In this document: one piece after another, positions 18,536 through 35,200 of the stretch
Numbering within the stretch: the first letter of the stretch is position 1
How the letters are laid out: every line of letters starts with the position of its first letter
Source of the DNA: a virus
Taxonomy: Duplodnaviria > Heunggongvirae > Uroviricota > Caudoviricetes
Reading direction: 5' to 3' (one strand)
Length of the DNA stretch: 64,000 nt
Virus record (IMG/VR): IMGVR_UViG_2541047959_000009
Notes under the pieces: model-generated
Databases searched by the model: none
The model's input: only the letters and a program-made list of their open reading frames with translations
Told to the model about the DNA's origin: nothing
Position numbers and translations under genes: made by a program

Positions 18536-18567
18536 GGTGCCCCCTTAGAAAGTTCCCATAATTGAAC

Positions 18568-18931: not shown

Positions 18932-19564
18932 ATGTTAAACATCAGAATGGGTTCCGATACGGGAGGTAAGGCAGCTATTGAGAGGCTGCTTGAGGCTTAT
19001 GGATTCACAACTAAGCAGGCATTAAGCGAGCACCTGAATGTCTCAAAAAGTACTATGGCAAACAGAGTGTTACGTGACAGTTTTCCTGCTGACTGGATAA
19101 TTCAGTGTGCACTAGAAACCGGTGTTTCGTTACTTTGGTTAGCCACTGGACAGGGAAGCATGAAAGAAGGATACGAGTCTGAGAAAAGATCTCATAACGA
19201 GAACAAACAAGCAATTAAACCGTTATCCAAACTCATAACTCCATCTATTCCTAAAGGAACCTTGGAAAATGGACAACTCAGTATTGATGAAGAGATTTTC
19301 CTAGACCACAGCATATTACCTGCAGATTATGAAGAATCGATGTTCTTAGAAACCCCTACTGATTGTTATCTCATCGATAAATCAGTTAAACAAGTCAGCA
19401 ATGGATTCTGGCTTATCAATATTGATGGAATGATTATTATTGCAAAAATCATGCGGATTCCCGGCAATAAGATTGTAGTAAATCAAGATGAAGCGTCTTT
19501 CGAGTGCTCTGCCGATGATGTGGAAGTTATTGGGCGTGCAGTCAAAGTAATAAAGAGTATCTAA
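18932..19564 (+). CDS. cI: 186 CI-like immunity repressor
   Basis: 210-aa ORF upstream of and co-oriented with int (cI-int operon as in 186). Confidence 0.8.
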   Translation: MLNIRMGSDTGGKAAIERLLEAYGFTTKQALSEHLNVSKSTMANRVLRDSFPADWIIQCALETGVSLLWLATGQGSMKEGYESEKRSHNENKQAIKPLSKLITPSIPKGTLENGQLSIDEEIFLDHSILPADYEESMFLETPTDCYLIDKSVKQVSNGFWLINIDGMIIIAKIMRIPGNKIVVNQDEASFECSADDVEVIGRAVKVIKSI

Positions 19565-19566
19565 AC

Positions 19567-20586
19567 ATGACTGTCAGAAAACAGCCAAACGGTAAATGGT
19601 TGTGCGAGTGCTATCCCAATGGACGCAATGGCAAGCGCGTGCGTAAGCAATTTGCTACGAAAGGCGAAGCCATTGCTTTTGAAAGCTTCACAATGGAAGA
19701 AGTGAACAAAAAACCATGGCTGGGGGAAAAGGAAGATCGGCGACACCTATCAGAATTAATTGAGCAGTGGTATTCCCTGTATGGTCAAACACTCGCAGAC
19801 CCCAAGCGCCTCATAGCGAAACTTAGAATTATCTGTAATGGTCTAGGCGATCCCATCGCTTCAGAACTGACAGCCGGTGACTTTACGAAATACCGCGAAG
19901 CACGGTTAAAAGGTGAAGTACGAAATGAAGATGGCACGTTTATGTCGCCCGTTAAGCCCCGCACGGTAAACCTTGAACAGCGCAATCTATCATCTGTTTT
20001 TGGTACACTGAAAAAGCTGGGCCACTGGTCAGCCCCCAACCCGCTTGCTGGGCTGCCAACATTTAAAATTGCTGAGAGTGAATTGGCGTTCCTGACCCCG
20101 GAAGAAATTAAACGTCTGCTGGATGCCTGCGCCGATTCTCAAAGCTCCAGCCTGCTTTTGATTGCAAAAATATGCCTGGCCACCGGCGCACGCTGGAGCG
20201 AAGCCGAAAACCTGCAGAGTCATCAGGTATCAAAATACCGTATCACTTATACCAAGACCAAAGGCAAGAAAAACCGAACTGTGCCTATTTCTAAGGATTT
20301 ATATGAAGAACTGCCTAAGAATAGGGGGAAGTTATTCACCCCATGCAGAAAAGCCTTTGAGCGTGCAGTAAAGCGAGCCGGTTTAGAACTACCAGAAGGC
20401 CAATGTACCCATGTTCTGCGCCATACATTTGCCAGTCATTTTATGATGAACGGTGGAAATATACTGGTACTGCGCGATATTCTTGGACATGCCGATATAA
20501 AAATGACGATGATTTACGCTCATTTTTCCCCAGATCATCTTGAAGATGCAGTAACTAAAAACCCATTAGCAACCTTGATGGATTAA
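19567..20586 (+). CDS. int: Tyrosine integrase (P2/186 family)
   Basis: 339-aa ORF; C-terminal R...HxLRHT...Y catalytic pattern (VLRHTFAS, IYAHF). Confidence 0.85.
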   Translation: MTVRKQPNGKWLCECYPNGRNGKRVRKQFATKGEAIAFESFTMEEVNKKPWLGEKEDRRHLSELIEQWYSLYGQTLADPKRLIAKLRIICNGLGDPIASELTAGDFTKYREARLKGEVRNEDGTFMSPVKPRTVNLEQRNLSSVFGTLKKLGHWSAPNPLAGLPTFKIAESELAFLTPEEIKRLLDACADSQSSSLLLIAKICLATGARWSEAENLQSHQVSKYRITYTKTKGKKNRTVPISKDLYEELPKNRGKLFTPCRKAFERAVKRAGLELPEGQCTHVLRHTFASHFMMNGGNILVLRDILGHADIKMTMIYAHFSPDHLEDAVTKNPLATLMD

Positions 20587-20590
20587 GCAC

Positions 20591-21814
20591 ATGCGCAACA
20601 TTATCGAATTAGAACAGATATCGGAAGAACTAAAAAAACATGAACTATTGCAACCCCCATTCATTGCCGAGGGAAAACTAATTTCTGACTTTTCTAAGAG
20701 AGTCGAGTGCTATTTAGAATTAATTGACTCCATTAGAAATAAATATCCTGACAACGAGATAATTAAACAAGTAAAGATTCGCACAAAATCAATAATATAT
20801 TTATCTGATAAAATAATAGAAACTCTTAAGCTATTTTTAATAGGAAATGTTAAAGAAGCTTATAAAAAATTCGATTTGGCAATTACCAAGTCATCAATGC
20901 ATACTCATCTTTATAAGATGACTGTTCCTCTAACTAAATTATGCAACCCACACACCCCTTTATTTCGCGTAAGGAAAAGTGAGTGCATCCTAAAACAAAG
21001 AGAAGAATTATTTCATATACCATTTAAAAATAGACATTTAGTTAGCGCACAAAGATTTTCTGTATCCGGTCTTCCATGTTTATATCTTGGAACATCAATA
21101 TTTGTATGTTGGCAAGAAATGGGAAAACCTGACTTTGATAAACTTTACATATCTTCCTTCATATCCGATAAAGAAAATTCAAATATAAGAATTTTAGATC
21201 TTGGGTACAATTTAACATCTGCACTTCGTACAAAACCGGGAGATCTTTGGTATTCATTCGAACAAGGTTCAGATGATGATTACGATCTAAATAATGATAA
21301 TTTCATGGATCAAATTAATGATAAAATTTCAAAGTTGATTGCATGGCCTTTAGTCCTTGCATGTAACTATACAAAAGATAATGAAAACGCAAGTTTTAAT
21401 AAAGAATACATAATACCAAACCTATTAATGCAATGGATTAGTAGTGACAGAAACAAAAATATATCAGGGATATCGTATCGATCAACAAAGATATTAAACC
21501 AAAAAGATAGCGATATTGGGATTAATGTAATTATCCCCCCAAAAATAGAAAACATAGTTGAAACCAATGATACCCACTGTCCTGTTTTAAAAAAAATATT
21601 TAGAGTTACAAACCCTGTTTCCTGGACTGTGTTTAGTACACTAGAAGCCACCCCCTATCTATACAAAAATAATTTTAATTTTTCGACCTATAATCCCGCA
21701 AAAGGATGGATTGAAGACTTTGATGAATCCCTTGTTGAACATTATGAAAATACCACTTTTAGAAAAGTTGAACTCCTTATTCATCAAATGATGAAGTATG
21801 AATATTTAAAATAA
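20591..21814 (+). CDS. RES-domain-like protein (putative NAD-targeting toxin fold), AT-rich cargo after int
   Basis: 407-aa ORF 4 bp after int stop; segment SAQRFSVSGLPCLYLGTSIFVCWQEMG matches the RES Arg/Ser/Glu signature as I recall. Confidence 0.5.
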   Translation: MRNIIELEQISEELKKHELLQPPFIAEGKLISDFSKRVECYLELIDSIRNKYPDNEIIKQVKIRTKSIIYLSDKIIETLKLFLIGNVKEAYKKFDLAITKSSMHTHLYKMTVPLTKLCNPHTPLFRVRKSECILKQREELFHIPFKNRHLVSAQRFSVSGLPCLYLGTSIFVCWQEMGKPDFDKLYISSFISDKENSNIRILDLGYNLTSALRTKPGDLWYSFEQGSDDDYDLNNDNFMDQINDKISKLIAWPLVLACNYTKDNENASFNKEYIIPNLLMQWISSDRNKNISGISYRSTKILNQKDSDIGINVIIPPKIENIVETNDTHCPVLKKIFRVTNPVSWTVFSTLEATPYLYKNNFNFSTYNPAKGWIEDFDESLVEHYENTTFRKVELLIHQMMKYEYLK

Positions 21815-21930
21815 GAGTGGCGGCATAATGGCGGCAAAGAGTTAAAAACACATAAAACAAGGTAATACATCGTAAACTTAAGTGATTGAAAATTAACATA
21901 AATAGTTGTTTTGCAACATGTTATAATGGT

Positions 21931-21975
21931 ATGTAGGAATTTCGGACGCGGGTTCAACTCCCGCCAGCTCCACCA
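21931..21975 (+). other. 45-nt copy of the ssrA (tmRNA) 3-prime end: prophage attachment core
   Basis: atgtaggaatttcggacgcgggttcaactcccgccagctccacca matches the remembered E. coli ssrA 3-prime end; upstream is unrelated AT-rich DNA. Confidence 0.7.
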
Positions 21976-22104
21976 ATCATGATTGGACGGTGTAAGGACA
22001 ACACCAACAAAAACAGGAAGTTAGAAGTCTCAGCAGGACACCGACCAGACGGTGAGGAGACATAAAAGGATACGCAAAGGAGCCGCGGCTCCGAAGTGAA
22101 ATGA

Positions 22105-22129
22105 AAGCCCGCTGATGCGGGCTTTTTTG
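22105..22129 (+). terminator. Rho-independent terminator
   Basis: agcccgc tgat gcgggct followed by tttttt. Confidence 0.6.
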
Positions 22130-22360
22130 CTTCTTCTCTTTAGCCTGATTCGACACTCTCAATGCGGCCATAAACAACAACCCACTTTTCTTATACCGTA
22201 GCCTGTCCCCCTCTTCCTGCTTTCTAACCATAACAGATGTGAGCGTTTGCTATGAGCGATATATAGTCATTCGTACCCTCCGATACTAATCATCACAGAA
22301 ATTAATATATTCATTCCTTACTGAAAAGCTATGAAGTAGATATATAGGATTGGGGCGCGT

Positions 22361-22558
22361 ATGGCACTGGACAGTTATGCATCTCCGAATATTATTCCGG
22401 AGCTAAGACAACCGAATGCCGCAGCAGGTAAGATCACGCTAGGGGGGCTGGACAGAATGGCTGTTACGCCCAGTGTGAAGAAAAGAAGGCTAAGTATGGT
22501 AGAATTTCCATACGCACAGACCTTGTTATCCGACTATACAGCCTGGAAGGCACTATGA
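22361..22558 (+). CDS. Small ORF upstream of and overlapping the nuclease-like gene (uncertain)
   Basis: 65-aa ORF with ATGA stop-start overlap with the next gene. Confidence 0.3.
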   Translation: MALDSYASPNIIPELRQPNAAAGKITLGGLDRMAVTPSVKKRRLSMVEFPYAQTLLSDYTAWKAL

Positions 22559-23343
22559 CAAATCTACAACTGGAAGAAAGATTTAGGGCGCTTGAGAAAG
22601 ATTACGATGCGCTCATTTCCACAAAATATACTGCGCAGAACGTTCTCACTCACACTATGGAAACCTATGTTGATTCTGGTAAATATAAAAACTGGATCGC
22701 CAGAGTGAAAAAGTTAATAGAGGACAGCTACGGAAAAGAGTCTGATTATTACAATGACTTCAATACTGTAAACAGCAGGTGGTCTTCTAATTACAATACA
22801 CTGATCAAAAGTTATAAACCGTTGTTTGATGCGGCGAGAGATGATCTTGCGCACTCTGCTGTCAGTACTAATACTCCTCAAGAAGGTTCGCCGCTGAGCC
22901 TCGTACTTAATATTCTTAACAGGTTTCCGACCTTTGTTCGCCAGTTAAAGAGGCGGTACAACGGCCGTGCGCCGCTTGAAGTTAATGATGAGTATGACGT
23001 ACAGGATTTGATTTATGCACTGCTGACGCTTCATTTTAATGATATTAGGGCGGAAGAGTATACCCCCAGCTTTGCGGGCGCGGCCTCAAGACAGGACTTT
23101 CTTTTGAAAAAAGAGAAAATTGTGATAGAGGTGAAGAAAACCCGTGAATCTCTGGGAGCGGGTAAAGTTGGTGGAGAGTTGCTTATTGATATGGCGCGCT
23201 ACCGCGCTCACCAAGACTGCGATACGTTGATCTTGTTTGTATATGACCCGGATTGCTACATAAATAATCCTTTGGGCGTGAAAACCGATCTGGAATCTAA
23301 AGACGCGGAAGGAAAAGTGAAGGTTGTTATTGCGCAGTTCTGA
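22555..23343 (+). CDS. PD-(D/E)xK nuclease-like protein (putative restriction-endonuclease fold)
   Basis: 262-aa ORF; C-terminal EYDVQD...RQDFLLKKEKIVIEVKK fits D...D/E-x-K; helical N-terminal domain. Confidence 0.55.
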   Translation: MTNLQLEERFRALEKDYDALISTKYTAQNVLTHTMETYVDSGKYKNWIARVKKLIEDSYGKESDYYNDFNTVNSRWSSNYNTLIKSYKPLFDAARDDLAHSAVSTNTPQEGSPLSLVLNILNRFPTFVRQLKRRYNGRAPLEVNDEYDVQDLIYALLTLHFNDIRAEEYTPSFAGAASRQDFLLKKEKIVIEVKKTRESLGAGKVGGELLIDMARYRAHQDCDTLILFVYDPDCYINNPLGVKTDLESKDAEGKVKVVIAQF

Positions 23344-23378
23344 CACGCTTAAGTGTCACCTTACAGGATTAGGTTTGC

Positions 23379-23423
23379 GGCCGTGCCAGCAGGACGAGCA
23401 TGAAAAAGGCCGCTGGCACGGCC
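23379..23423. terminator. Hairpin between convergent genes
   Basis: ggccgtgccagc ... gctggcacggcc 12-bp stem. Confidence 0.4.
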
Positions 23424-23430
23424 GGATTTG

Positions 23431-23724
23431 TCATCTTTGCCAGGTCAAATCAAAATCTACGTGAAAATCCGCAGGCTTAAGCTCGCAACTGCCACCACGC
23501 CCAATTAACGACGTTATGTTTACAACGTTTGAACCTGTTGAGATGGCAAGTTGAGTGTCATCTGTAAACGTGATGATTAGCATTTCAGTCTGATGAACCT
23601 GTACTCCAGTTTTCTGAAAACCAATCTGGACAGATTTCACCGTTTTCCCAACCATTTCACGGGCTTGATTGATAGAGTAATTAGCTTCAACTTGTAGGTC
23701 ATTCCTGAACTTGGGTAGTGTCAT
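23431..23724 (-). CDS. Hypothetical 97-aa protein
   Basis: ORF with AAGAGGATG RBS. Confidence 0.45.
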   Translation of the reverse strand: MTLPKFRNDLQVEANYSINQAREMVGKTVKSVQIGFQKTGVQVHQTEMLIITFTDDTQLAISTGSNVVNITSLIGRGGSCELKPADFHVDFDLTWQR

Positions 23725-23934
23725 TTTACATCCTCTTTAGTGAAGTTTTCGCTATTTAAATCAGCAGCATTCCTTTTAAATCACTGGCATGTCAGCAGTG
23801 GATAGTCTGAGTGTAACGTCCAGTGAGGGGAATAAATATTGGTCAGACTTTGCACAAAAGAGCCAACTATCGCGGGCTCTCTCTCATCATGTGCGAAAAT
23901 TGACCACAATATGAAATCCAGTTCCATTCCGAAA

Positions 23935-24759
<825 letters not shown>

Positions 24760-24865
24760 TCAATTGACAACTTATAATCCCTACTAGTTAGCATTATGAT
24801 TTCCAGAGTGAGGAATATAAAAATCTCTGTTTCTGGCACATAACAGCCCTTAAGATCGTAGCTCG

Positions 24866-24915
24866 CCATCATGGGGTGTCGGGGGGCGGAGGTTCAAATC
24901 CTCTCGTGCCGACCA
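24866..24915 (+). other. 3-prime fragment of a tRNA-Pro(UGG)-like gene (att-like remnant), not an intact tRNA
   Basis: catggggtgtcggggggcggaggttcaaatcctctcgtgccgacca matches remembered proM 3-prime half; no complementary 5-prime acceptor strand upstream. Confidence 0.55.
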
Positions 24916-24928
24916 AAAATCCCTTAAG

Positions 24929-24955
24929 AACCAGCCTATTATGGCTGGTTTTTTT
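24929..24955 (+). terminator. Rho-independent terminator after the tRNA-Pro fragment
   Basis: aaccagcc tattat ggctggtt then ttttt. Confidence 0.6.
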
Positions 24956-25156
24956 ATGATTGTTTTTTATGCGGAGAAATACCGGGGAATAATTGGGGTA
25001 AAACACCTTTAGGCTATTCACTTAGCCTACCACCATCAAAATCTTTCCGAATGTATCCATCTCTTTTTTCTTATGCAGCTAAAACGAAGTCTTGATACTG
25101 TTTATTTACACAGATAAGAATAATACTGTCTACAAACGCAGTACAAAAGAAGTGTT

Positions 25157-25335
25157 ATGCGTATTGAGATCTCCATAGCCAAAGACAAAATGACCAAATG
25201 CCAAACGGCGCTGTGGACGCGTTAAAGGAAGAATTAACCCAACACATTGGCAAGCGTTATGACGATGTGGAGATGATCGTAAAAGCCACCAGCAACGATA
25301 GTTTTTCAGTTAGACATACTGCAGATAAAGATTGA
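25157..25335 (+). pseudogene. dinI-like gene disrupted by a frameshift
   Basis: [11 protein letters not shown]... stops after 22 codons; the DinI-like remainder ...[37 protein letters not shown] is in another frame. Confidence 0.45.
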
Positions 25336-25759
25336 GCTAAAACTTTCGTTCAGGAAACTCTGAATGATACCTGAGAGTCTACTGAAGAGTTGTTTGTTCA
25401 CTAGTTAGCACGTAGGAAATCATTCAATACTCGCACTATCGGAAGTTCACCAGCCAGTCGTAGCACGTCCTTGCAAACGACGTGCCTACGGTTTCAATCA
25501 CCTCTCACCATCAATTCTATCAATAATAATTAAACAGCGCCTAGACAAAATAAATAACAACAAGTCAACAACCTCGACAGGATGCCGATGGGATGATGAA
25601 GAGATAAGAAAGAATAACCAGTAAAGCCCTAAAACGTCAGCGTTCAGACGCGTTTTTTACTTAATCGGTAACAAATACGTTGTATCATAGCAAAATAAAA
25701 TGATTGTTCTAAATCAGATTAACTCCTCACTTTTGTACAATGTCGCTTACAGGTATACC

Positions 25760-27649
25760 ATGAAATCCGAGACGCTAACTGTCCAACAACTTTTTCAAGA
25801 CCGCCGACAATACTGTGTTCCATTCTATCAACGTGCCTATGTATGGACTCAGCAAGACCAGTGGTCAGCTCTACTGGAGGATATCCTAGAGAAAGTACAA
25901 TCCCGGCTCTCGGGTACAAAACCAACTCCCCATTTCCTTGGTGCGGTTGTACTGGAACCTCAATCAAAAAAAGGATTATTAGGTGTAGATTCCATACATA
26001 TTATTGATGGTCAGCAACGATTGACCACTCTTCAATATGTTCTGGCATCCATCCGATTAGCATTACGTGCTACGGATCTTTCCAGCTTAGAGGCTCTCAT
26101 TTCGCCTTGCCTGAAAAACTCAAACGAAGACACAATGCGAAATAAAGAAGTAGAACGCTTCAAACTGTGGCCAACTTTTCGGGATCAAACTCATTTTATT
26201 CAAAGTTTTAATGTTGAAAATATTGACGATCTCCGGGACGTATTCTCTGATAGTTTCACGCAGCATGGTACGTTGCGTAAGCATTTTAATCACCCGCCAT
26301 CACTAGAAGCATTATGTTTTTTTACTGAAGCCTTTATAAAATGGATTAAAATAGAAAACCACTCACCACAAGAAAATGCTGTAGCTCTAATTGAGGCTGT
26401 CTTAACAGATCTGAAACTGGTAAGCATATTTCTCGAAGCTGAAGATGATGCCCAAATAATTTTTGAAACATTAAATGGGCGAGGGGCGGAACTTCATGCT
26501 ACGGATCTTATTCGCAACTATATCTTTATGTGCGCTGAGCATGAAAATATTAATGCTATTGAATTATATGAAAATGAGTGGAAGAGCTTTGAAGATAAAT
26601 ACTGGTCGGAAAAACAACGCCGTGGACGTATTAATAAACCACGCATGGAGTGGCTAGTACATGCGACATTGCAATCAGAAAGGCAACGTGAAATTGATCT
26701 GTCTCGCCTTTACAATGAGTATCGTGATTATGTAAGTAAGGACTTGTCTTCACAACGAGCAGATCTGCAAGTAAAGCGCCTCAAACAATATGCATCACAA
26801 TATAAAGAATTGGTTGATGGTTTTGGCACAACCCCCATCTCACACTTTGGATATCGCATCGCAGACTATGATGTGACGACACTTTATCCGCTTGCTTTGT
26901 TCATTTCGATAGCTAACATCGCTGATGATGAGAAAGCAGCCATGTATAATGATCTTGTCTCCTACGTAGTACGAAGAGCCGTATGTGGCCTGACGCCAAA
27001 GAATTACAACAATGTATTTATGAATGTATTGCGGCACTTGGCTAAAACGGAAATTTCCAGTGTTGAGTTACGTAATATCCTCAATAACTTAAATGGCGAA
27101 GCCTCACGTTGGCCTGGTGACTCAGAATTTCTCAACGCTTGCATCAATGCTCCACTTTATCCTGGCAGGCTCGACGCACCGAAAATGCGCTCAATGTTAA
27201 CGGAACTTGAAAGAGAACTTTGTCGCCAAGTAAAGACAGAAAAGCCTGATGTTCCAAATCTTTCTAATCTCGATATCGATCATCTTATGCCTCAAAGTTG
27301 GTATTCCTGTTGGCCTCTCGAAAATGGTCGTATGGTGACAAATTCAGATGCTACGGTATTGAACCAAATTGTTCTGTCTGGAACCGATCTTACCCCTGAA
27401 CAGCTACTGGTAAGGAAACGGCAACAAGCGATATCTACTTTGGGAAATCTAACTTTGCTTAACCTTAGCGTAAACCGTTCTGTTCAGAATGCTGTATTTC
27501 TGAAAAAACGTGATGCTCTCATCGTCCACACCAATCTACGACTGAACATTCCACTTATAGTTAAGGATAAATGGGATGAGGATGAAATCCTGGAGCGGGG
27601 TAAAAAGTTGGGGGAAATTGCATTGAAAGTATGGCCAAAACACGATTAA
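25760..27649 (+). CDS. GmrSD-family type IV restriction endonuclease-like protein (DUF262 + DUF1524)
   Basis: N-terminal QRAYVW and IIDGQQRLTTL; C-terminal DIDHLMPQS...GNLTLLN His-Me finger; ORF opens at 25700 but AGGT RBS favours ATG 25760. Confidence 0.75.
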   Translation: MKSETLTVQQLFQDRRQYCVPFYQRAYVWTQQDQWSALLEDILEKVQSRLSGTKPTPHFLGAVVLEPQSKKGLLGVDSIHIIDGQQRLTTLQYVLASIRLALRATDLSSLEALISPCLKNSNEDTMRNKEVERFKLWPTFRDQTHFIQSFNVENIDDLRDVFSDSFTQHGTLRKHFNHPPSLEALCFFTEAFIKWIKIENHSPQENAVALIEAVLTDLKLVSIFLEAEDDAQIIFETLNGRGAELHATDLIRNYIFMCAEHENINAIELYENEWKSFEDKYWSEKQRRGRINKPRMEWLVHATLQSERQREIDLSRLYNEYRDYVSKDLSSQRADLQVKRLKQYASQYKELVDGFGTTPISHFGYRIADYDVTTLYPLALFISIANIADDEKAAMYNDLVSYVVRRAVCGLTPKNYNNVFMNVLRHLAKTEISSVELRNILNNLNGEASRWPGDSEFLNACINAPLYPGRLDAPKMRSMLTELERELCRQVKTEKPDVPNLSNLDIDHLMPQSWYSCWPLENGRMVTNSDATVLNQIVLSGTDLTPEQLLVRKRQQAISTLGNLTLLNLSVNRSVQNAVFLKKRDALIVHTNLRLNIPLIVKDKWDEDEILERGKKLGEIALKVWPKHD

Positions 27650-27899
27650 TGCAATTAATAAAATGATTATAGTGGCCTTACATTAGTAAGGCCGCTACTC
27701 ACTATTAAATACTTTAATTTGCATCAAGAACAGCAGTGTCAGCCCTAGGTCTCGGACTTTGTACCGCTTATCTTGTCTTCAAAAATCAGCTCGCATCCTG
27801 CACAGTTCAGCGCATTACGTTGTAGATCTGTGTTCTGGTCATTTGTTGACACACGTACATAGCCAATAAGCATGGTAGATCTCCCTGACAAAAGCAGGA

Positions 27900-28196
27900 A
27901 TGATGCCATTTGCTCGTTATTTCTGCATTTTCATAAACGTTGGTTTGGGAGAAGGCGCTGCATGGCCTGTGGGCGTCGCTGATAAACAGACCCCAGACAC
28001 ATCGCTCAGGACGGGTCTGAGATGCAACGGAACGGCTGTGATTGGTGAACCTTACCGGGAAATCATTCAGACTGATCCGGTAAGTATAAGGCGCGAATTG
28101 CCTATGAATGGAATGACTGACAGTGCTGATGGGCGCGGAGGTGATAATAGGCGTTCTGTGGTCTCAGCACCATTGCCAACTGTATTTACTATTTAG
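27900..28196 (+). pseudogene. 5-prime-truncated copy of the tail-fibre constant-region 3-prime end (left arm of mirrored cassette)
   Basis: ...GLGEGAAWPVGVADKQTPD...LRCNG...VVSAPLPTVFTI parallels the C-terminus of the fibre gene at 29612-30157; in-frame stop at 27876. Confidence 0.5.
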
Positions 28197-28200
28197 GTGC
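28176..28200. repeat. Left copy of 25-bp inverted repeat at the fibre junction
   Basis: ccaactgtatttactatttaggtgc; 24/25 identical to the reverse complement of 29608-29632. Confidence 0.6.
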
Positions 28201-28394
28201 TGGTAGCTATCCTCTTGGGATCTTCGAGAGGTTCAGGTGCTATATTCAGTAATATAGTAGGGTCAGGCGCAACCGGGGTTAGCATTACCGTCGCCGTCAG
28301 TAGGAATAATACCGTTGTGGGCACAGTGGCCGTACCACTGATTGCAACCTGTCCTTCCAATACCAGAGTCTCCGCTATAGTGATAGCACGGTAA
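28197..28394 (+). CDS. Short glycine-rich tail-fibre distal segment (Sv-prime-like), GTG start after in-frame TAG
   Basis: 65 codons in frame with upstream fragment; GSGAIFSNIVGSGATGV...RNNTVVGT homologous to the minus-strand counterpart. Confidence 0.4.
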   Translation: MLVAILLGSSRGSGAIFSNIVGSGATGVSITVAVSRNNTVVGTVAVPLIATCPSNTRVSAIVIAR

Positions 28395-28738
28395 TGATGA
28401 AAGCAGTATTCTATACAGGACGAAGTGCAACAAATGATCGGCAAGATATGGTTCAAGAATATGATGGTGAGAGAACGCTACCTGATGACACTTTAGAAAT
28501 TTACATTGACATAGGTGAGCGAATCCCTGGACAGTCCTCACAAGGTAAAGCAAGTGTAGCTGAGGCTGCAGAAGCGCCCGGTTGTATTGAGTATTCACAT
28601 CCATCGGAAGAGGTTCAGGAGCTGCCGGGTGAAATCGACAAAATATCTTTGACTTCAGAATTAAATCAAAACACAGCAACCCATGATTGGCCCGGAAATG
28701 CTACTACTGGTCGTCTAATAGGCCCGTACCATGCGTAA
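28394..28738 (+). CDS. Tail-fibre assembly/adhesin-like protein (U-prime-like)
   Basis: 114-aa ORF, TAATG overlap with previous ORF; C-terminal ...HDWPGNA; paralogous to 29088-29414. Confidence 0.5.
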   Translation: MMKAVFYTGRSATNDRQDMVQEYDGERTLPDDTLEIYIDIGERIPGQSSQGKASVAEAAEAPGCIEYSHPSEEVQELPGEIDKISLTSELNQNTATHDWPGNATTGRLIGPYHA

Positions 28739-29087
28739 GATGATTCGTGGCGGGAGTACCATAACGAGCTGGAGCTGGGCGACGCTTCATACGCGGCAGA
28801 TGCTCAGTGTCAGACACCTACGGATGTTGAGACCGGTTGCCACGGGGCGCTTTAGCTGAAATTGCAGCCCGCACCGAATCTAAGGAATGCAGCAAAAACC
28901 CAACCTGAGGCGTTGCTGGCTGAATTAGATTCGGTCCGGGCTACAATTACCACCAAATCGCACGATTTCAAGTCGTCTGAGCTGCCATCGGCGTCGGACG
29001 TTGTATTTCTGCCGCGTAGAATGTGTCGCCCTGTTCCAGTGCGGTCACGGTCTCCAACCTCGCACTATACTACTTCACTTCCTCGGT

Positions 29088-29414
29088 TTATAGGCCAATA
29101 ATAGCTGTTTTTTCGGGCCAATGACGCGGATTGGTGTTGGTATTGGCTTCTCCAGTTAAGGATATTTTGATGATTTCAGCCCTCAACTCCTGAACCTCTT
29201 CCCATGGGTTTGGGTACTTAGACCAACATGTCGCTCCACACGCGTCAGCTCTACCTGCTTCATCTTGACGGGGAAGTGCCGGGATTCCATCATAAATGTC
29301 TCTATATACACTTGTAACAGAAACAGATACCCTAGCTTCACCATCATATTTTTGAACCGAATTATCCCGTGACATAGTATTAATAACGGGACTAATTAAT
29401 ATTGAGTTATTCAT
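29088..29414 (-). CDS. Tail-fibre assembly/adhesin-like protein (U-like)
   Basis: Start MNNSILISP at 29414 with AGGA RBS; C-terminal ...PRHWPEKTA; paralogous to 28394-28738. Confidence 0.5.
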   Translation of the reverse strand: MNNSILISPVINTMSRDNSVQKYDGEARVSVSVTSVYRDIYDGIPALPRQDEAGRADACGATCWSKYPNPWEEVQELRAEIIKISLTGEANTNTNPRHWPEKTAIIGL

Positions 29415-29434
29415 TACGGTCCTATCATGAAATA

Positions 29435-29611
29435 TTAAACTCTGATATCGCATGGACAGGTATCGATCGGTGTTTCGTCGACTGTGAACGAAACCGTATT
29501 ATTCTTCCTGTCAGCGACAAAAGAATTAACCGCGGTCGCGTATGAACCTGCAATATCAGTAAATTCACCACCTGAGGCTCTCGTAGATACCGGGGGGATA
29601 ACTCGCTGCAC
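29435..29611 (-). CDS. Short tail-fibre distal segment (Sv-like), GTG start right after the TAG of the fibre gene
   Basis: 58 codons VQRVIPPVSTRASGGEFTDIAGS...KNNTVSF...TCPCDIRV, homologous to 28197-28394. Confidence 0.4.
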   Translation of the reverse strand: MQRVIPPVSTRASGGEFTDIAGSYATAVNSFVADRKNNTVSFTVDETPIDTCPCDIRV

Positions 29612-29632
29612 CTAAAAAGTAAATACAGTTGG
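29608..29632. repeat. Right copy of 25-bp inverted repeat at the fibre junction
   Basis: Reverse complement ccaactgtatttactttttaggtgc. Confidence 0.6.
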
Positions 29633-30157
29633 CTCTTGGGCTGAGACAACCTCAGGCTTTTTATAACCGGTGAGGCCATCAGCCTTGCCAGTAATACCCT
29701 TACCAGCCACTGGGGCGATTTTACTTGCCGGAACAACCTTTGTCATTTCCCGGTAATGTTCAGCAAACAAAAACGCTCCATTGCAACTAATCAAGGTTGA
29801 GGGAGGTATATCAGAAGGTTGGGTATCAGGGACGCCCACAGTTCGTGCAGAGCCTTCTCCCAAACCAAGGTTTTCGAGAGCCGTTTTCACCGTGCCGTCC
29901 GATTTGATATCGCTAAACGGATTCTTGCGGCTTAACAGCAGCGCACGAAGCGCGGTAAGCAGCTGGTCGTGCCGCGCCTTCTCCAGACTGGCACCGGATG
30001 CCTCCACCACGCTGCAGAGTTCTTCCTGCAACATGTCAAAGTAGTCATCATCCAGATCGGTGGCAGGCGTGCCTGTCTGGGGGTTACCACGGGTAAAACC
30101 GTTCTTACCCGCGCCGAACTTATCCTTCTGCGCGGTTTTCGTGTCTATACGATGCAT
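29612..30157 (-). CDS. Tail fibre protein, conserved N-terminal (constant) part
   Basis: 181-aa [32 protein letters not shown]..., the N-terminus I associate with Mu-type tail fibres; ends at TAG inside the repeat. Confidence 0.65.
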
Positions 30158-30160
30158 GGA

Positions 30161-30745
30161 TTACTCCGGATATTTAAAAATTACGTAGGTATGCGAAGGG
30201 CAGAGTTTGTTAAGCACACATTCGACGACGGTGTCGCCCCAGATACGCAGCGCGGAATCACAGGGATCGCCACATGTCATCCAGGTGCTGTTGGTGGCGG
30301 CTGGCATGTTGACCTGCCAGTAATACCGCCATTCCGGCGCATTCACCGCGTCAGTACAGGCCGATGAGCAGGTGAACGTGCTTTTGTCGTATCGCGTGAT
30401 GGTGGCGTCTGGTCTGCCCAGGGCAGCAAGCTGTGCAAGGTAAAAATCCTCATTGATGCCGCCCGCCAGGTTAACCTTCGCATCCAGTCGTTGCTGACGC
30501 TGGCGAAGGGTCTGTGTTCCTGCGGGAATACATTCATCCGGCAGGCCGCACAGACGCTCCCAGCGATTTATCAGTTCGGTGGTGGTGCGCGGATCCAGCT
30601 CCCGCATCAGGGCATCCGCACGCTGATGAACGCGGGTTAATGACTGTGCCGCACCGGCAATCGCCGGATCGCTGGCTGACCACGCCGGACCGGGCGGCAG
30701 CAGTGCCGACAACAGACGGATGTAATCATCGTTTGTCACGCCCAT
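30161..30745 (-). CDS. Mu gp48 / YmfQ-like tail protein (DUF2313)
   Basis: 194-aa ORF between baseplate J-like gene and tail fibre. Confidence 0.65.
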
Positions 30746-31794
30746 GAAATCGTCCCCAGAACCGCCAGTTCATTTTTTGCAATGGAGATATTTTCCGCCG
30801 GTGCAAGCAATTGATGGCTGTATTCCCCGTTCGCACCGGAAATCGCTTCACTGATACGCGACACCTTCAGTTCTCCCTGCGGATAACCATCACGCAGCAG
30901 GAACGAACGCAACTCCGCGGTGATGGCAGCCCGTATTTCCGGTGTATCCGGCGTCACACGGATATGAAAATCCACCGTATGCGCCACCGGCCTGAACACA
31001 TACAAATCAGAGCCTGCCACCGGGGCCAGTGGCCCGATATGTTGTCTTGCCGCCGTTTCCGTTGATTCTTCCGGAATGGGATTAATCAGGTCACTGCTGG
31101 CAATCATCACACCGACAGTCCCCGTTCCCATCCAGTGACGGTATGCCCATGCGCGGGTAATGCCGGGCAATTCTTTAGCCCAGACAACATAGTCCCCGTC
31201 AGCCCCGCCCTGAGGCGTCCAGTAATACCGCTCAATGACGCGGGCGCGCCACGTTTCCAGCTCTTCAGTATCAAATCCACCTGTCAGAGTGTCTGCCACG
31301 CCGGAAGACGGCAGACCATTAACCGGCGTGACCAGGATTAATGACGTACCGTCGTCAGCGTTACCGACCGCGCCTGCACTTGAGCAGGCGATCGGCACGC
31401 GCAGGACACCACCGGCGCTGGTTGCATCGGCAGTTGCCGTGTACTGAATCAGGTCATCGCGCTGAATAACACTCCCGGCGGTCACCTTCAGGCCATCGCT
31501 GACGCCTTCCCAGCGCATATACCCGCTGGCAGTCGTGGCCCCCTTGCGCGGACACCGTTTCATCGCAGCATGTCGCGCCAGCCAGGACTCATCGCACAGG
31601 TCAGGCAGCATGTTCATTGCCAGATAATCGATGTACCCGTAAACCGTATGCAGCGCCGCCGCATACACCTTTGCCCGCACGTCTTCATCCATGCGCCGGA
31701 GCGTGTCGCTGACGTCCAGCCTGGCGAATAAATCGTTACGGAGCATACTGATATTTTCTGCCAGCGTCGGGCGCTGAAATTCACTGTCCGCCAT
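30736..31794 (-). CDS. Baseplate J-like protein (Mu gp47-like)
   Basis: 352-aa ORF in Mu-like baseplate order. Confidence 0.8.
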
Positions 31795-32209
31795 GCGTTA
31801 TCGCACTCCACAGATCATCTAAAGAAATCATTACCGGTCCGTCACGACGCCAGAGAGTGATACTGTTACCCAGTTCATTAATCCCGGTGCGGAGGATATC
31901 CAGATCAATACGGGACACCACGCCGTCATCAATCATCCATTGCAGGCATTCGCGGATATACCCCCTTACCGTCTGCACCAGCTGATTGGTCAGTTTGCTG
32001 CGCTGAAGCAGCCACAGTCGGGAGCCGTAACGGTCATTCTGTACCGCAGGCCAGGTATCCCCCCACCATCCCATCGGGACGTCGGCGTTGTCATCAGGCT
32101 CCGCCCGCCGCCAGGTAAACAGGGAAATCACCACGGCGCGGGTCAGCGGATCCAGCGGTGCGCTGGCGCAGGTGCGTTTACCGTTCACCGTCAGCCACAG
32201 TTCCATCAT
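31781..32209 (-). CDS. Baseplate protein (Mu gp46 / gpW-like)
   Basis: 142-aa ORF; synteny. Confidence 0.7.
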   Translation of the reverse strand: MMELWLTVNGKRTCASAPLDPLTRAVVISLFTWRRAEPDDNADVPMGWWGDTWPAVQNDRYGSRLWLLQRSKLTNQLVQTVRGYIRECLQWMIDDGVVSRIDLDILRTGINELGNSITLWRRDGPVMISLDDLWSAITHGGQ

Positions 32210-32754
32210 GCCTCCATCGCTTTATCAGGTTTGTCGGTGTTACTGCCCTGACCGTTCTCTCTGTGACGATGCCCGTTATAGGCAAGCCGCATCGCTGACA
32301 TGGTGGTGCCGCTGGAGTCGCACAGGTCTTTCACCTGTCCTGTCACTTCCAGGTCCATTTCAAAACGTGCTTCAGGTGCATTGCGAAACGTGATCGTTTT
32401 ACCTGCACCGTCCACCACGATCCCCTCCCGGGTCAGCGTCACAGACTGCCCCTGATCGTCATAGACCGCCACCTCACCCGTCTGCAGCCCTTTCAGGCGG
32501 TAGCGCCGGTCCGACACCGTAACAACCACCGCATGAGAACGGTCACCATCCGGAAACAACACCACCGCTTCCGCACCGCTGTTTGCCCTTGCGGTAAAAC
32601 CGTAGGGTTCAAGATGTTCAACCCCGGCTTTGGGTTCACCGGCAATCAGGGACACATCCACGGTCTGACATTTCGTGGCGGCACTGATGCTTTTCACCAC
32701 TGCCCGCCCAATCAGGCCGAGGAGTTGTCGCTGCATGGCTTCAATCGTACTCAT
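32206..32754 (-). CDS. Baseplate assembly protein V-like (spike)
   Basis: 182-aa ORF; synteny. Confidence 0.7.
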   Translation of the reverse strand: MSTIEAMQRQLLGLIGRAVVKSISAATKCQTVDVSLIAGEPKAGVEHLEPYGFTARANSGAEAVVLFPDGDRSHAVVVTVSDRRYRLKGLQTGEVAVYDDQGQSVTLTREGIVVDGAGKTITFRNAPEARFEMDLEVTGQVKDLCDSSGTTMSAMRLAYNGHRHRENGQGSNTDKPDKAMEA

Positions 32755-33833
32755 CAGAACGGGTCCTCCTGTACTCTGGCTTTTTTCTTTTTCCGCGCGC
32801 CGGGGGCTTCGGGTTCAGGCAGATAAGCATCAGGTGGGCCGACACGGATTTCCGTCAGGGTGCCGTTCTGGTCCTGAGTAAACGTGACTTCCGAGACAAG
32901 CAGTTCGGTATTGTCGAAACCACAGACCGGATCGAAGACAATCACCCGCTGGTTGGGCTGCCACAGCGTACCGTTACCCTGTCGCCAGCCCTGCACCACA
33001 TAGGTGGTTTCATCCGTCCGCGCCGCCCGTTGTCGGGCTTCAAAGTCAGCACGCGCAATACAGCCTGCCCCCGTAGCCTGCCCTGTCTGCCTGATATACA
33101 TCGGACGGTAACGGGCAATAAATGCGTCCTCTGTGCGGGCCCGCAGCGCGCTGGTGGTGGCCTCACCGAAATCATCGTCGTTTCCAGCACGCTGCCCCGC
33201 CACCTGGTAAACAGAAAACCGCTCCCGGATACTCTTCTCCGTATCGCAGGAAAGGATGTTTTCCCCGAGTACCAGCGCAGTATGTGCCCGCGTTGAGCCA
33301 ATACCGCCAATCACCAGCCTGCCGTGTGGGTCGTCGTAAGCCAGTGCCTGCTGCTGACCGAGTATTTTGTTGATTACCTCAATCACCGTTTCACCGTGAT
33401 CGGGCTGGACGTCAGGAATAACACCCGACGGCGCACCGTTGTTCACCACCTCAATGCCGAAAGGCGCAGCAAGCGCCTGCGCAATCTGTACCAGCGATCG
33501 TCCGTTAAACTGTGTCGGTTCGGCTGCACAGTCAATCAGGTCAGCGGTCAGACTGCGTCCGGCAATACCGGTGCTGACCGAACGGGCATCGTAACGAACG
33601 GGCGTCGCCTCCACCCAGCCGGTGATCACCAGCTCATCACCAATCAGCACCTCCACTTTTGAACCGTTTTTAATGCGCGGCTGAAGCGTGGTGATACCCT
33701 CATCACCCGGCCACTGGCGGGTGATCTCCACACTGAAATCCCGCGCCAGCCGTTCAATACCGGCACCGATGCGCACCGATGTCCAGCCATTCCACTCCCG
33801 GCCATTTACCCGTAGCGTGACGTTATCGTTCAT
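32754..33833 (-). CDS. Baseplate hub protein (Mu P / gpD-like)
   Basis: 359-aa ORF after DNA circulation protein. Confidence 0.7.
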   Translation of the reverse strand: MNDNVTLRVNGREWNGWTSVRIGAGIERLARDFSVEITRQWPGDEGITTLQPRIKNGSKVEVLIGDELVITGWVEATPVRYDARSVSTGIAGRSLTADLIDCAAEPTQFNGRSLVQIAQALAAPFGIEVVNNGAPSGVIPDVQPDHGETVIEVINKILGQQQALAYDDPHGRLVIGGIGSTRAHTALVLGENILSCDTEKSIRERFSVYQVAGQRAGNDDDFGEATTSALRARTEDAFIARYRPMYIRQTGQATGAGCIARADFEARQRAARTDETTYVVQGWRQGNGTLWQPNQRVIVFDPVCGFDNTELLVSEVTFTQDQNGTLTEIRVGPPDAYLPEPEAPGARKKKKARVQEDPF

Positions 33834-35200
33834 TGCACTGGCACCTTCAGAGGGATCACCGGCACAAAGCCGGGATGCGTAATGGCATTACGCCGGATAA
33901 TGTCCGCGTCACGCGCCGCGTTATCAAACCAGGTCGCCGCCAGCACCAGCGCGGGTAAAACCTCATCCGGTGTGCGCTGAATGATCCGTGCAGACTGTTC
34001 AAGGCGCGTGTTGATATCCGCATTCAGATCTGCTTTCACCCGGCGCAGCGCCAGAAACAGCACATCACTGGTTGTACGGGACAACTCCTTATCAATTGCC
34101 GTATTCAGTGTGTCGCGAATGTCGGTCAGTTCTTCCCACGTTGGCAGGTCAACCGTGTTTTTCACCGCCGGTGCATTGTTCAGTGCCGGATGCGTGACAG
34201 AAGGCCAGCCGGTGCTCTGCGCGGGTGTTGTTGACTGCCCCACTGTGGCATTCTGCATCACCGCGGAAGTTGTGGGCGCAGGCAATCGTGTGACGGCATA
34301 CGCCGCTTCGCTGATTGCGGTCGTACGAAGGGTGCTGGCAACCACGTTACGCTGCTGCGTCGCCGTGGCGGTGGTTTTACTGTCCGTTTTCCAGACGCCG
34401 CGCGGTTGCAGATCGCTGCCGAGGCTGACACCGGAAAGCGTTTTGATCATGGTGACCAGGTCGCTGGCGTTACCATAAAGGCGTTTCCCGGTACGCCACA
34501 TTTTCTGCACCTGCTCAACGAAATTTTTGCCTGACGATGGCGGCGGCAGAAGTACCGAGATATCCCCCTGCAACAGCCTGGCGGCATCCGATACGGCAGA
34601 ATCCACCACTTTCATCGCATCAGAAACATACCCAAGCATTGTGCTGGCATTACCGACGACGTCGTTCTGCACAAAATCTGCCACGCCATCGATACTGAAA
34701 CCACTGAAGCTGTCACTGATGCAGTCATCCAGTGCAGAACAGGATGACATCAGCGTCTGCGCCGTCGCCGCACCTGAAGTGGGGTAAGAGAGTTCTCCCG
34801 CTTCGACAAACTTCAGGTCAAAGCGGACAATACGCCCTTCACTCTTCGATGTGCTGACCCGAACTTCCCCGTCAACACAGACTTTCAGCTCACCGTAAGT
34901 CGGATGGACAAGCGTGCCGGGACCGGGTTTATTCAGCGCGTCAATCAGGCGATCGCGCTGGTCAAAGCAGTCATCTCCCACCACATAAGCTGTGATGGAC
35001 GGGCGGAAAGTGATTTTCCCCAGGTCTTCGGTATAGGGTTTGTCGCGGTTCGGGTATTCGTGCGTTTCCACACGACGACCGGTTCCCGCACTTTCTTCTT
35101 CAACCTTAAACGGCACACCGCGAAATGACGCGTCCTGAAGTCTGTCTTTCCACGTCATATAAACTCCGTACATAAAAAATCCCACCGGAGTGGGACTCAT
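33830..35200 (-). CDS. Mu N-like DNA circulation protein
   Basis: 456-aa ORF downstream of tape measure. Confidence 0.7.
   Translation of the reverse strand: MSPTPVGFFMYGVYMTWKDRLQDASFRGVPFKVEEESAGTGRRVETHEYPNRDKPYTEDLGKITFRPSITAYVVGDDCFDQRDRLIDALNKPGPGTLVHPTYGELKVCVDGEVRVSTSKSEGRIVRFDLKFVEAGELSYPTSGAATAQTLMSSCSALDDCISDSFSGFSIDGVADFVQNDVVGNASTMLGYVSDAMKVVDSAVSDAARLLQGDISVLLPPPSSGKNFVEQVQKMWRTGKRLYGNASDLVTMIKTLSGVSLGSDLQPRGVWKTDSKTTATATQQRNVVASTLRTTAISEAAYAVTRLPAPTTSAVMQNATVGQSTTPAQSTGWPSVTHPALNNAPAVKNTVDLPTWEELTDIRDTLNTAIDKELSRTTSDVLFLALRRVKADLNADINTRLEQSARIIQRTPDEVLPALVLAATWFDNAARDADIIRRNAITHPGFVPVIPLKVPVQ

What the first reader, a model, noticed from the sequence alone, without database searches (positions are those of the whole stretch)
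25760..27649. GmrSD-like type IV restriction gene where a fibre invertase would be expected
DUF262 (QRxYxW, DGQQR) and DUF1524 (DxDHxxPQS) motifs are both present. The gene abuts the truncated arm of the tail-fibre cassette, the position where G-segment-type phages carry their invertase, and resembles the e14 arrangement where mcrA follows pin. This suggests a defence gene replaced or displaced the invertase.
Basis: partly seen in the sequence, partly recalled or inferred. Interest (0 to 1): 0.45.

Follow-up and report, generated by a model that had tools for sequence, protein, structure and literature searches.

The report
Known GmrSD gene replacing prophage invertase

Summary
The ORF at 25760-27649 (+) is a real, intact GmrSD type IV restriction gene. 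Its 629-aa product is 100% identical to UTI89_C2960, the published "UT" GmrSD enzyme.

The idea that it replaced the invertase holds. Codons 1 to about 49 of a pinE-type serine invertase lie at 27873-27728 (-). The last few pinE codons and the pinE 3' flank lie on the other side of gmrSD, at 25417-25504. A 2.2-kb cassette (25505-27727) therefore replaced about 400 bp of pinE interior.

About 300 of 5,426 complete E. coli genomes carry this gene, apparently always with the same stub junction. Related prophages with the same tail module keep pinE intact and carry other defence genes just beyond it: McrA in e14, Ppl, and PD-T4-3.

The "truncated arm" of the fibre cassette is not real. Window 27955-29845 is a base-by-base mix of both orientations of the invertible segment, and the mix is present in the public record. 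Both orientations also occur in finished genomes, so the segment apparently still flips without a cis invertase.

The enzyme, its prophage location and its invertase-like neighbour are all published. Interest is low.

The parts
25760..27649 (+). gmrSD, a single-chain type IV restriction endonuclease of 629 aa. It has an N-terminal DUF262/ParB-like NTPase domain and a C-terminal DUF1524 HNH nuclease domain.
   Evidence: Pfam GmrSD_N E 6.8e-34 and GmrSD_C E 3.5e-20. PADLOC mREase_IV 1415 bits over 1-629/629. 629/629 identical to UTI89 WP_000834402.1. D507, H508 and N522 are present (PMC4437046).
25505..27727 (.). Imported gmrSD cassette of about 2.2 kb and about 40% GC. It takes the place of about 400 bp of pinE interior.
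   Evidence: Homology to intact pinE loci stops at 25504 on the left and resumes at 27728/27752 on the right. The homolog in Enterobacteriaceae bacterium B14 shares only 25726-27591 and has no pin nearby.
27670..27697 (.). Hairpin with a 12-bp stem, 21 nt after the gmrSD stop. It lies between the convergent gmrSD and pinE stub and is a likely bidirectional terminator.
   Evidence: Fold of 27645-27720: -22.8 kcal/mol, z -6.15, and 0 of 200 shuffles fold as well. Its role as a terminator is inferred.
27728..27873 (-). pinE 5' relic (codons 1 to about 49). It still encodes MLIGYVRVSTNDQ... including the catalytic-serine motif, but is broken after codon 41 by a 2-nt deletion and a 1-nt insertion.
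   Evidence: tblastn with the pro483 invertase: aa 1-44 match 27873-27742 at 88.6%, E 2e-21. 27752-27954 is 100% identical to the O157 F8492 pinE locus. The alignment to L007 shows the indels. RefSeq labels it 'recombinase family protein, incomplete, missing C-terminus'.
25417..25504 (-). The last approximately 11 nt of pinE (…GD*) plus the conserved ~80-bp stretch that follows pinE in intact loci.
   Evidence: It aligns to L007 5001-5088 at 89.8%, where pinE is 5078-5632 (-). It also aligns to L006 8490-8568 and L005 8534-8578, each abutting or overlapping the pinE stop.
27928..27953 (.). Crossover site next to the invertase. Reverse complement: TTCTCCCAAACCAACGTTTATGAAAA. Central dinucleotide at 27940-27941.
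   Evidence: Inverted repeat I1, 27935-27984 / 29824-29873, 50 nt, 88% complementary. Sequence read directly. The mosaic is symmetric about the midpoint of the two site centres.
29855..29880 (.). Distal crossover site (TTCTCCCAAACCAAGGTTTTCGAGAG) inside the tail-fibre gene. Central dinucleotide at 29867-29868.
27941..29867 (.). Invertible tail-fibre segment holding two alternative fibre C-termini and two tail-fibre assembly genes. In this record, 27955-29845 is a base-by-base superposition of the two orientations and is not a real molecule.
   Evidence: Of 1939 positions, 100% equal the forward or the inverted UTI89 base. Of 1361 informative positions, 699 are forward and 662 inverted, in 707 runs. 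The genes are intact in UTI89 and S88. The same bases are in GenBank KE702650.1.
29881..30157 (-). Constant N-terminal part of the tail-fibre gene ('phage tail protein' in RefSeq). It reads into the invertible segment.
   Evidence: RefSeq annotation of S88 and UTI89. Identical to S88 from 29874 onward.
23935..24708 (-). PD-T4-3 (GIY-YIG) defence gene. It is a neighbour in the same prophage-end cargo block.
   Evidence: PADLOC PD-T4-3 E 9.9e-136. Pfam LEM-3_GIY-YIG.
25157..25374 (+). DinI-like pseudogene between PD-T4-3 and the pinE 3' flank.
   Evidence: RefSeq note 'frameshifted; internal stop' in UTI89 and S88, mapped to window coordinates. Related phages carry dinI here.
22555..23343 (+). 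Solo DpnII/MboI-type PD-(D/E)XK nuclease-domain protein. It is the first gene after the ssrA fragment.
   Evidence: Pfam PF18742 E 9.5e-49.
21931..21975 (+). The 3' 45 nt of ssrA (tmRNA). It is the att duplication that closes the P2-like prophage and marks the start of the cargo block.
   Evidence: 100% match to ssrA nt 319-363 of UTI89. No full tmRNA gene is found in the window. In S88 the full ssrA lies upstream of the P2-like prophage.

Best explanation
The gene 25760-27649 encodes the UT variant of GmrSD, a single-chain, modification-dependent (type IV) restriction endonuclease. It is carried as cargo at the tail-fibre end of an e14/SfII-like prophage.

How it works (from published work on the identical and 93%-identical proteins): the N-terminal DUF262 domain (ParB/Srx fold, DGQQR motif) binds and hydrolyses NTP. 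The C-terminal DUF1524 domain is an HNH nuclease with catalytic residues D507-H508-N522. The enzyme cuts DNA that carries glucosyl-hydroxymethylcytosine or hydroxymethylcytosine, so the lysogen excludes T-even phages. The UT allele is insensitive to the T4 inhibitor IPI* and restricts T2 and T6 but not T4.

How it got there (inferred from the sequence): a 2.2-kb, low-GC cassette carries gmrSD together with 255 bp of upstream sequence (25505-25759) and a terminator hairpin. It replaced codons ~50-181 of the prophage's pinE invertase gene. This left a 5' stub on one side and the last codons plus the 3' flank on the other. The event happened once, before the CT596, UT and Eco94 alleles diverged. 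The fused pinE'-gmrSD-'pinE unit has since travelled together with the invertible fibre cassette.
For: Identity and domains. The protein is 629/629 identical to UTI89_C2960.

Published function: PMC4437046 (read) reports that the UT enzyme is IPI*-insensitive and restricts T2/T6 but not T4; that Eco94GmrSD (93% identical) shows ATP-stimulated cleavage of T4 DNA; and that D507A, H508A and N522A are inactive. PMC4619093 assigns the ParB/Srx and HNH folds.

pinE relics on both sides of gmrSD.

Same junctions in the most divergent allele examined: strain LP5-1 is 90% identical in DNA, with contiguous homology over 25416-27981.

Linkage counts: 300 genomes carry gmrSD plus the junction, and 306 carry the terminator plus the stub.

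Outside origin: a 78%-identical homolog in Enterobacteriaceae bacterium B14 shares only 25726-27591 and has no pin or tail genes nearby.

Intact-pinE relatives with the same tail module carry other defence genes just beyond pinE: McrA, Ppl and PD-T4-3.
Against: No experiment was run here, so activity rests on published work with the identical protein.

No convincing promoter was found upstream of gmrSD. The consensus scan found no more sites than shuffled sequence gives.

The recombination event that put the cassette into pinE left no recognisable signature that I could identify, and I made no systematic search for microhomology at the junctions.

The claim that all carriers share the junction rests on counts and on sampled rows, not on inspection of all 300 genomes.
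Confidence: 0.88

Rival explanations
1. gmrSD simply occupies the ordinary cargo slot downstream of pin, as mcrA does in e14. The pin truncation is then a separate, later deletion that has nothing to do with gmrSD.
For: Relatives do carry defence genes just beyond an intact pinE. Truncated invertases also occur next to other cargo, for example the 105-aa invertase in vB_EcoM-606R2.
Against: The pinE stop codon and its conserved 3' flank lie on the far side of gmrSD (25417-25504). gmrSD therefore sits between the two ends of pinE, not beyond it. The junctions are the same in an allele only 90% identical. The counts of gmrSD carriers (300) and stub-junction carriers (306) nearly coincide.
Confidence: 0.07
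2. The locus is a decayed, non-functional remnant: gmrSD is silent, and the fibre cassette is frozen and degenerating, as the broken ORFs in the window suggest.
For: The ORFs between 27900 and 29740 are short and broken in the window. The neighbouring dinI and pinE are pseudogenes.
Against: The broken ORFs are an artefact of two superposed orientations, and all four genes are intact in S88 and UTI89. gmrSD is full length, identical across many ST95-type genomes, and encodes a protein reported to be active (PMC4437046). Both orientations of the segment occur at 100% identity in finished genomes.
Confidence: 0.03
3. The mixed-orientation sequence and the two orientations seen among genomes do not reflect ongoing inversion. 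They would reflect an old polymorphism or exchange between prophages, plus an assembler that merged two graph paths from a mixed or contaminated sample.
For: No invertase is found in the window. No pinE-like 3' sequence is found on the S88, PMV-1, APEC O1 or MS7163 chromosomes. The mosaic is an assembler product, so it says nothing about the ratio of the two forms.
Against: The flanks of the mosaic differ from S88 at only 2 positions in about 48 kb, which argues against a mixture of different strains. The symmetry axis of the mosaic falls exactly on the midpoint between the two crossover dinucleotides. Near-identical genomes with the same stub differ in orientation.
Confidence: 0.3

Closest known systems
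UTI89_C2960 (EcoUTI89GmrSD, the 'UT enzyme')
   Same: Identical protein, 629/629. Same neighbours from ssrA through the prophage tail genes; outside the invertible segment, only 1 mismatch in the ~11 kb compared (21931-27934 and 29874-34800).
   Different: Nothing in the gene itself. In this strain, as in S88, a P2-like prophage is additionally inserted at ssrA upstream of the block.
Eco94GmrSD (E. coli STEC_94C) and CT596 GmrSD, the prototypes of the family
   Same: Same length (629 aa), with 93% identity reported between Eco94 and UT. Same D507-H508-N522 site. Same location immediately after the tail-fibre genes of an SfII-like prophage (PMC4437046). [quoted passage not shown]
   Different: Allelic differences change inhibitor sensitivity and phage range. 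CT596 and Eco94 are blocked by T4 IPI*; UT is not, and it does not restrict T4 (PMC4437046).
e14 element of E. coli K-12 (stfE/tfaE P segment - pinE - mcrA - attR)
   Same: Same ymfQ/baseplate J tail module, the same type of invertible fibre segment and pinE, and a type IV HNH restriction gene as terminal cargo (PADLOC mREase_IV for McrA).
   Different: In e14, pinE is intact and mcrA lies beyond it. Here the restriction gene lies inside pinE and has destroyed it. McrA and GmrSD are unrelated outside the HNH motif.
Mu G segment/Gin, P1 C segment/Cin and Salmonella Hin inversion systems
   Same: Two 26-bp inverted crossover sites flank alternative fibre C-termini and assembly genes, with the invertase gene starting about 70 bp from one site.
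   Different: The cis invertase is reduced to a 49-codon relic, so any inversion must be catalysed in trans.
BrxU and other GmrSD-family enzymes in defence islands
   Same: Same two-domain architecture (DUF262 + DUF1524).
   Different: Only distant sequence similarity. The sole solved-structure match is a DUF262 protein, 9jfl_B, at E 3.5e-8 over the N-terminal domain. The genomic context also differs: BREX islands or immigration control regions rather than a prophage fibre locus.

Membership tests
GmrSD type IV restriction endonucleases | N-terminal DUF262 (GmrSD_N, ParB/Srx-like) domain with the DGQQR NTP-binding motif | tested here: met
   Pfam PF03235 E 6.8e-34, full-length model match 1-199/199. 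DGQQR at aa 83-87 and QRAYVW at aa 24-29.
GmrSD type IV restriction endonucleases | C-terminal DUF1524 (GmrSD_C) His-Me/HNH nuclease domain with the D-H...N catalytic residues | tested here: met
   Pfam PF07510 E 3.5e-20. D507, H508, N522, N528 and N535 read from the translation. These are the residues mutated in PMC4437046.
GmrSD type IV restriction endonucleases | Both domains fused in one chain and close sequence identity to a biochemically characterised member | tested here: met
   629/629 identical to UTI89_C2960. PADLOC mREase_IV 1415 bits over the whole length.
GmrSD type IV restriction endonucleases | NTP-stimulated cleavage of glucosyl-hmC or hmC DNA, and restriction of T-even phages in vivo | not testable with these tools
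   Reported for the identical UT protein and for Eco94GmrSD in PMC4437046. Not repeated here.
Gin/Pin/Cin/Hin-type invertible tail-fibre switch | Two ~26-bp crossover sites in inverted orientation that bracket alternative fibre C-termini and assembly genes | tested here: met
   Sites at 27928-27953 and 29855-29880 within a 50-nt, 88% inverted repeat. Four oppositely oriented genes in S88 and UTI89.
Gin/Pin/Cin/Hin-type invertible tail-fibre switch | A functional serine invertase gene adjacent to one crossover site | tested here: not met
   Only codons 1 to about 49 remain, with frameshifts. No other invertase is found in the 64-kb window.
Gin/Pin/Cin/Hin-type invertible tail-fibre switch | The segment is found in both orientations | tested here: met
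   The deposited sequence is a superposition of both orientations. F-junction genomes include UTI89, NU14 and MS7163; R-junction genomes include PMV-1, IHE3034 and APEC O1. All are at 100% identity next to the same gmrSD.
Gin/Pin/Cin/Hin-type invertible tail-fibre switch | A Fis-dependent recombinational enhancer about 100 bp from one crossover site, inside the 5' end of the invertase gene | tested here: inconclusive
   The stub covers the stretch 100-165 bp from the site centre, where the Hin enhancer lies (PMC3798978). A Fis-like 15-mer, GTGTCAACAAATGAC, is centred 95.5 bp from the crossover centre. The scan is degenerate and no binding was tested.

The most novel reading that the evidence does not exclude
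The tail-fibre switch of this prophage is still flipped although its own invertase was destroyed by the gmrSD cassette. The 5' stub of pinE may persist because it carries the cis-acting enhancer, which would let a recombinase supplied in trans keep switching host range. That recombinase could come from a plasmid prophage, a superinfecting phage, or an invertase too divergent for blastn. In several carrier chromosomes no pinE-like gene is detectable, so its identity is open.
Probability: 0.35. Interest if true: 0.4.

Novelty: already known. Interest (0 to 1): 0.2.

Why it matters
The gene adds nothing new. It is the published UT GmrSD, its prophage location next to the tail-fibre genes is published, and an invertase-like neighbour was noted for the CT596 prototype.

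Three things go modestly beyond the literature that I could search:
- The whole CT596/UT/Eco94 clade of gmrSD sits inside a pinE relic, with the same junctions in about 300 finished E. coli genomes. This dates one cargo-swap event and shows that the pin-distal end of e14-type prophages is a defence hotspot, with McrA, Ppl, PD-T4-3 or GmrSD in the same place.
- The fibre switch seems to keep inverting without its own invertase.
- A public assembly contains 1.9 kb of sequence that belongs to no real molecule. This would mislead anyone annotating tail-fibre genes from it.

Tried and rejected
- tRNA/tmRNA scan of the window found nothing. Only the last 45 nt of ssrA are present.
- Search for direct repeats linking 21900-25760 to the region after the far-end integrase (62900-64000) found only 11-mers. 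The att sites of the second prophage were therefore not located.
- Promoter and terminator consensus scan around gmrSD found no more sites than shuffled sequence gives.
- Solved-structure search gave only a distant DUF262 hit, 9jfl_B.
- NCBIfam gave no family for gmrSD or its neighbours. PHROGs gave only families of unknown function.
- An exact-protein look-up with the mosaic ORF 29088-29453 found nothing. The look-up with 29612-30157 found the source record.
- I tried to find a trans-acting invertase by adding pinE codons 51-184 to a gmrSD query. S88, PMV-1, APEC O1 and MS7163 chromosomes show only the gmrSD place, while UTI89 shows a second place that I could not locate. Plasmids of these strains were not examined.
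- Rejected: natural divergence as the cause of the 65% identity in 27935-29873. The match has no indels at all, and every base equals the forward or the inverted base.
- Rejected: a simple inversion relative to UTI89. The inverted alignment is also only 64% identical.
Full report
**What is at the coordinates**

The window has one long ORF in this region, 25700-27649 on the + strand. This is the length of the RefSeq CDS in UTI89 and S88 and of the PADLOC model that it matches end to end.

Pfam finds GmrSD_N/DUF262 (E 6.8e-34, aa 8-256) and GmrSD_C/DUF1524 (E 3.5e-20, aa 451-619).

**Which GmrSD it is**

The protein is 629/629 identical to WP_000834402.1 of E. coli UTI89 (using the locus fetched). 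This is UTI89_C2960, the "UT enzyme" of the GmrSD literature.

He et al. 2015 (PMC4437046) report the following:
- UT is a fused single-chain GmrSD that is insensitive to the T4 inhibitor IPI*. It restricts T2, T6 and other T-even phages, but not T4.
- The 93%-identical Eco94GmrSD cleaves T4 DNA in an ATP-stimulated way.
- D507A, H508A and N522A mutants are inactive. All three residues are present here.

Machnicka et al. 2015 (PMC4619093) assign the ParB/Srx fold to the N-terminal domain and the HNH fold to the C-terminal domain. [quoted passage not shown]

The enzyme, its prophage location and its invertase-like neighbour are therefore all already in print.

**Layout of the region**

Apart from one segment, the window is almost identical to E. 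coli S88. It differs at 1 of 9,935 positions over 18000-27934, 0 of 1,928 over 29874-31801, and 1 of 32,406 over 31595-64000. It comes from NCBI assembly GCA_000461775.1, scaffold KE702650.1.

From left to right the window contains:
- A P2-like prophage that runs off the left end and closes with CI (18932-19564) and integrase (19567-20586).
- A 407-aa ORF of unknown function (20591-21814).
- The last 45 nt of ssrA (21931-21975), which is the att duplication.
- A low-GC cargo block: a solo DpnII/MboI-type nuclease-domain protein (22555-23343), a 97-aa ORF, PD-T4-3 (23935-24708, -), a dinI pseudogene and gmrSD.
- The tail-fibre end of a complete e14/SfII-like prophage, with a Mu-type baseplate, an HK97-type head, a ymfK/ymfT/ymfL immunity region and an integrase at 61882-63054.

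**The invertase**

A tblastn with the full-length invertase of phage pro483 finds one real match in the 64 kb. Residues 1-44 align to 27873-27742 on the - strand at 88.6% identity (E 2e-21). Nothing else scores better than E 4.

At the DNA level, 27752-27954 is 100% identical to the pinE locus of an O157:H7 prophage and 94.7% identical to e14 pinE of K-12 strains. Alignment to another intact pinE (strain VTB97420v) extends the homology to 27728, about codon 49, and shows a 2-nt deletion and a 1-nt insertion after codon 41. RefSeq annotates this stub as an incomplete "recombinase family protein".

The other end of pinE is also present, on the far side of gmrSD. Window 25417-25504 matches the stretch that begins inside the last codons of pinE and continues into its 3' flank. 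This holds in all three intact-pinE loci examined: L007 5001-5088 at 89.8%, L006 8490-8568, and L005 8534-8578.

So 2.2 kb (25505-27727) stand where about 400 bp of pinE coding sequence should be. This block holds gmrSD, 255 bp of upstream sequence and a strong hairpin at 27670-27697 (-22.8 kcal/mol, z -6.15). It is more specific than the e14 analogy, because the gene lies inside the pin relic rather than after pin.

**How old and how common**

About 300 of 5,426 complete E. coli genomes carry this gmrSD with the junction. 306 carry the gmrSD terminator joined to the stub. Every sampled row shows the stub beside the gene.

The most divergent copy I looked at (strain LP5-1, 90% DNA identity, in a differently placed prophage) is colinear across both junctions, 25416-27981. 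The replacement therefore predates the divergence of the known alleles, and the unit moves together with the fibre cassette.

A 78%-identical homolog in Enterobacteriaceae bacterium B14 shares only 25726-27591. It lies next to mltC, a kinase gene, a ClpB-like gene and an integrase fragment, with no pin or tail genes. This fits import of the gene from elsewhere.

**The slot is a defence hotspot**

Prophages with the same ymfQ/baseplate J module and an intact pinE carry different cargo just beyond pinE:
- mcrA followed by attR in e14.
- A 165-aa ORF and a Ppl-type ATPase in FORC_081.
- PD-T4-3 in O157 F8492.
- A 432-aa ORF in VTB97420v.

A 2024 preprint on phage hotspots also notes that invertases, fibre genes and defence genes share hotspots in P2-like phages.

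**The "truncated arm" is an artefact**

Between 27935 and 29873 the window is only 66% identical to S88/UTI89, yet the alignment has no indel at all. It is also only 64% identical to the inverted segment.

Position by position, every one of the 1,939 bases equals either the forward base or the inverted base. At the 1,361 positions where the two differ, the window takes the forward base 699 times and the inverted base 662 times. The choices fall in 707 runs with a geometric length distribution, which is a coin-flip pattern. The symmetry axis (28904) is exactly the midpoint between the central dinucleotides of the two 26-bp crossover sites (27940-27941 and 29867-29868).

No finished E. coli genome has this sequence, but it is present in the deposited scaffold. 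It is a superposition of the two orientations produced by the assembler. The short broken ORFs seen there are not real. In S88 and UTI89 the four cassette genes are intact, at 163, 147, 200 and 247 aa.

**The switch seems still to flip**

The superposition implies that both orientations were represented in the sequenced DNA. Independently, junction queries built from UTI89 show both states next to identical gmrSD-stub sequence. The forward junction is found at 100% identity in UTI89, NU14 and MS7163, among others. The inverted junction is found at 100% in PMV-1, IHE3034 and APEC O1, among others.

There is no invertase in the window. A blastn query containing pinE codons 51-184 finds no second place on the S88, PMV-1, APEC O1 or MS7163 chromosomes. 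What catalyses inversion is unexplained.

One inference may bear on this. In Hin-type systems the 65-bp Fis-dependent enhancer lies about 100 bp from one crossover site (PMC3798978), and from general knowledge of Hin and Gin that is inside the 5' end of the invertase gene. The surviving stub covers that stretch, and a Fis-like 15-mer is centred 95.5 bp from the crossover centre. This would allow a trans-acting invertase to work, but it was not tested.

**Verdict**

The thing found is already known: the UT GmrSD in its published prophage context.

The details that go beyond what I could find in the searchable literature are the embedding of the gene within a pinE relic, the single origin of that arrangement, the apparent inversion without a cis invertase, and the corrupted stretch in the public record. 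These are of modest interest.

Noticed in passing
window 27955-29845: The deposited assembly (GCA_000461775.1, KE702650.1) contains a base-by-base superposition of the two orientations of the invertible tail-fibre segment. This sequence exists in no real molecule and breaks all four cassette ORFs.
   Followed up: yes
window 27728-29880, plus complete genomes: Both orientations of the fibre segment occur next to the same dead invertase stub. Several carrier chromosomes have no pinE-like gene detectable by blastn, so the recombinase responsible is unknown.
   Followed up: partly
window 23935-24708 (-): PD-T4-3 (GIY-YIG) defence gene, PADLOC E 9.9e-136. The same gene directly follows an intact pinE in O157:H7 strain F8492. 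The window carries one SNP relative to S88 inside it (24228).
   Followed up: partly
window 22555-23343 (+): A 262-aa protein with a DpnII/MboI-type restriction-endonuclease domain (Pfam E 9.5e-49) and no methyltransferase next to it. It is the first gene after the ssrA fragment. It also matches the PADLOC Argonaute-associated 'Helical-REase' models.
   Followed up: no
window 20591-21814 (+): A 407-aa ORF of unknown function (phrog_7835, no Pfam, PADLOC or NCBIfam hit). It is wedged between the P2-like integrase and its attR, an unusual cargo position for a P2-like prophage.
   Followed up: partly
window 11127-12536 (-) and 561-2261 (+): The P2-like prophage carries PD-T7-1 (PADLOC E 1.3e-196) between the portal and replication genes, which is the tin/old-type hotspot. 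It also carries an AIPR/AbiU-like protein next to baseplate gene V.
   Followed up: no
window 25412-25497: The ~85-bp stretch that follows pinE is found in about 700 further E. coli genomes that lack gmrSD. In the three intact-pinE loci examined it directly abuts or overlaps the pinE stop codon. In other genomes it lies under or near features labelled capsid protein or tail fibre assembly protein.
   Followed up: partly
window 63046-64000 (-), continuing in S88 (L014 31452-33322): Three genes beyond the far-end integrase, before the core gene glaH: a 199-aa protein (phrog_30059), a STAS-like DUF4325 protein and a 303-aa protein. They may be further cargo. The att sites of this prophage were not found.
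   Followed up: no
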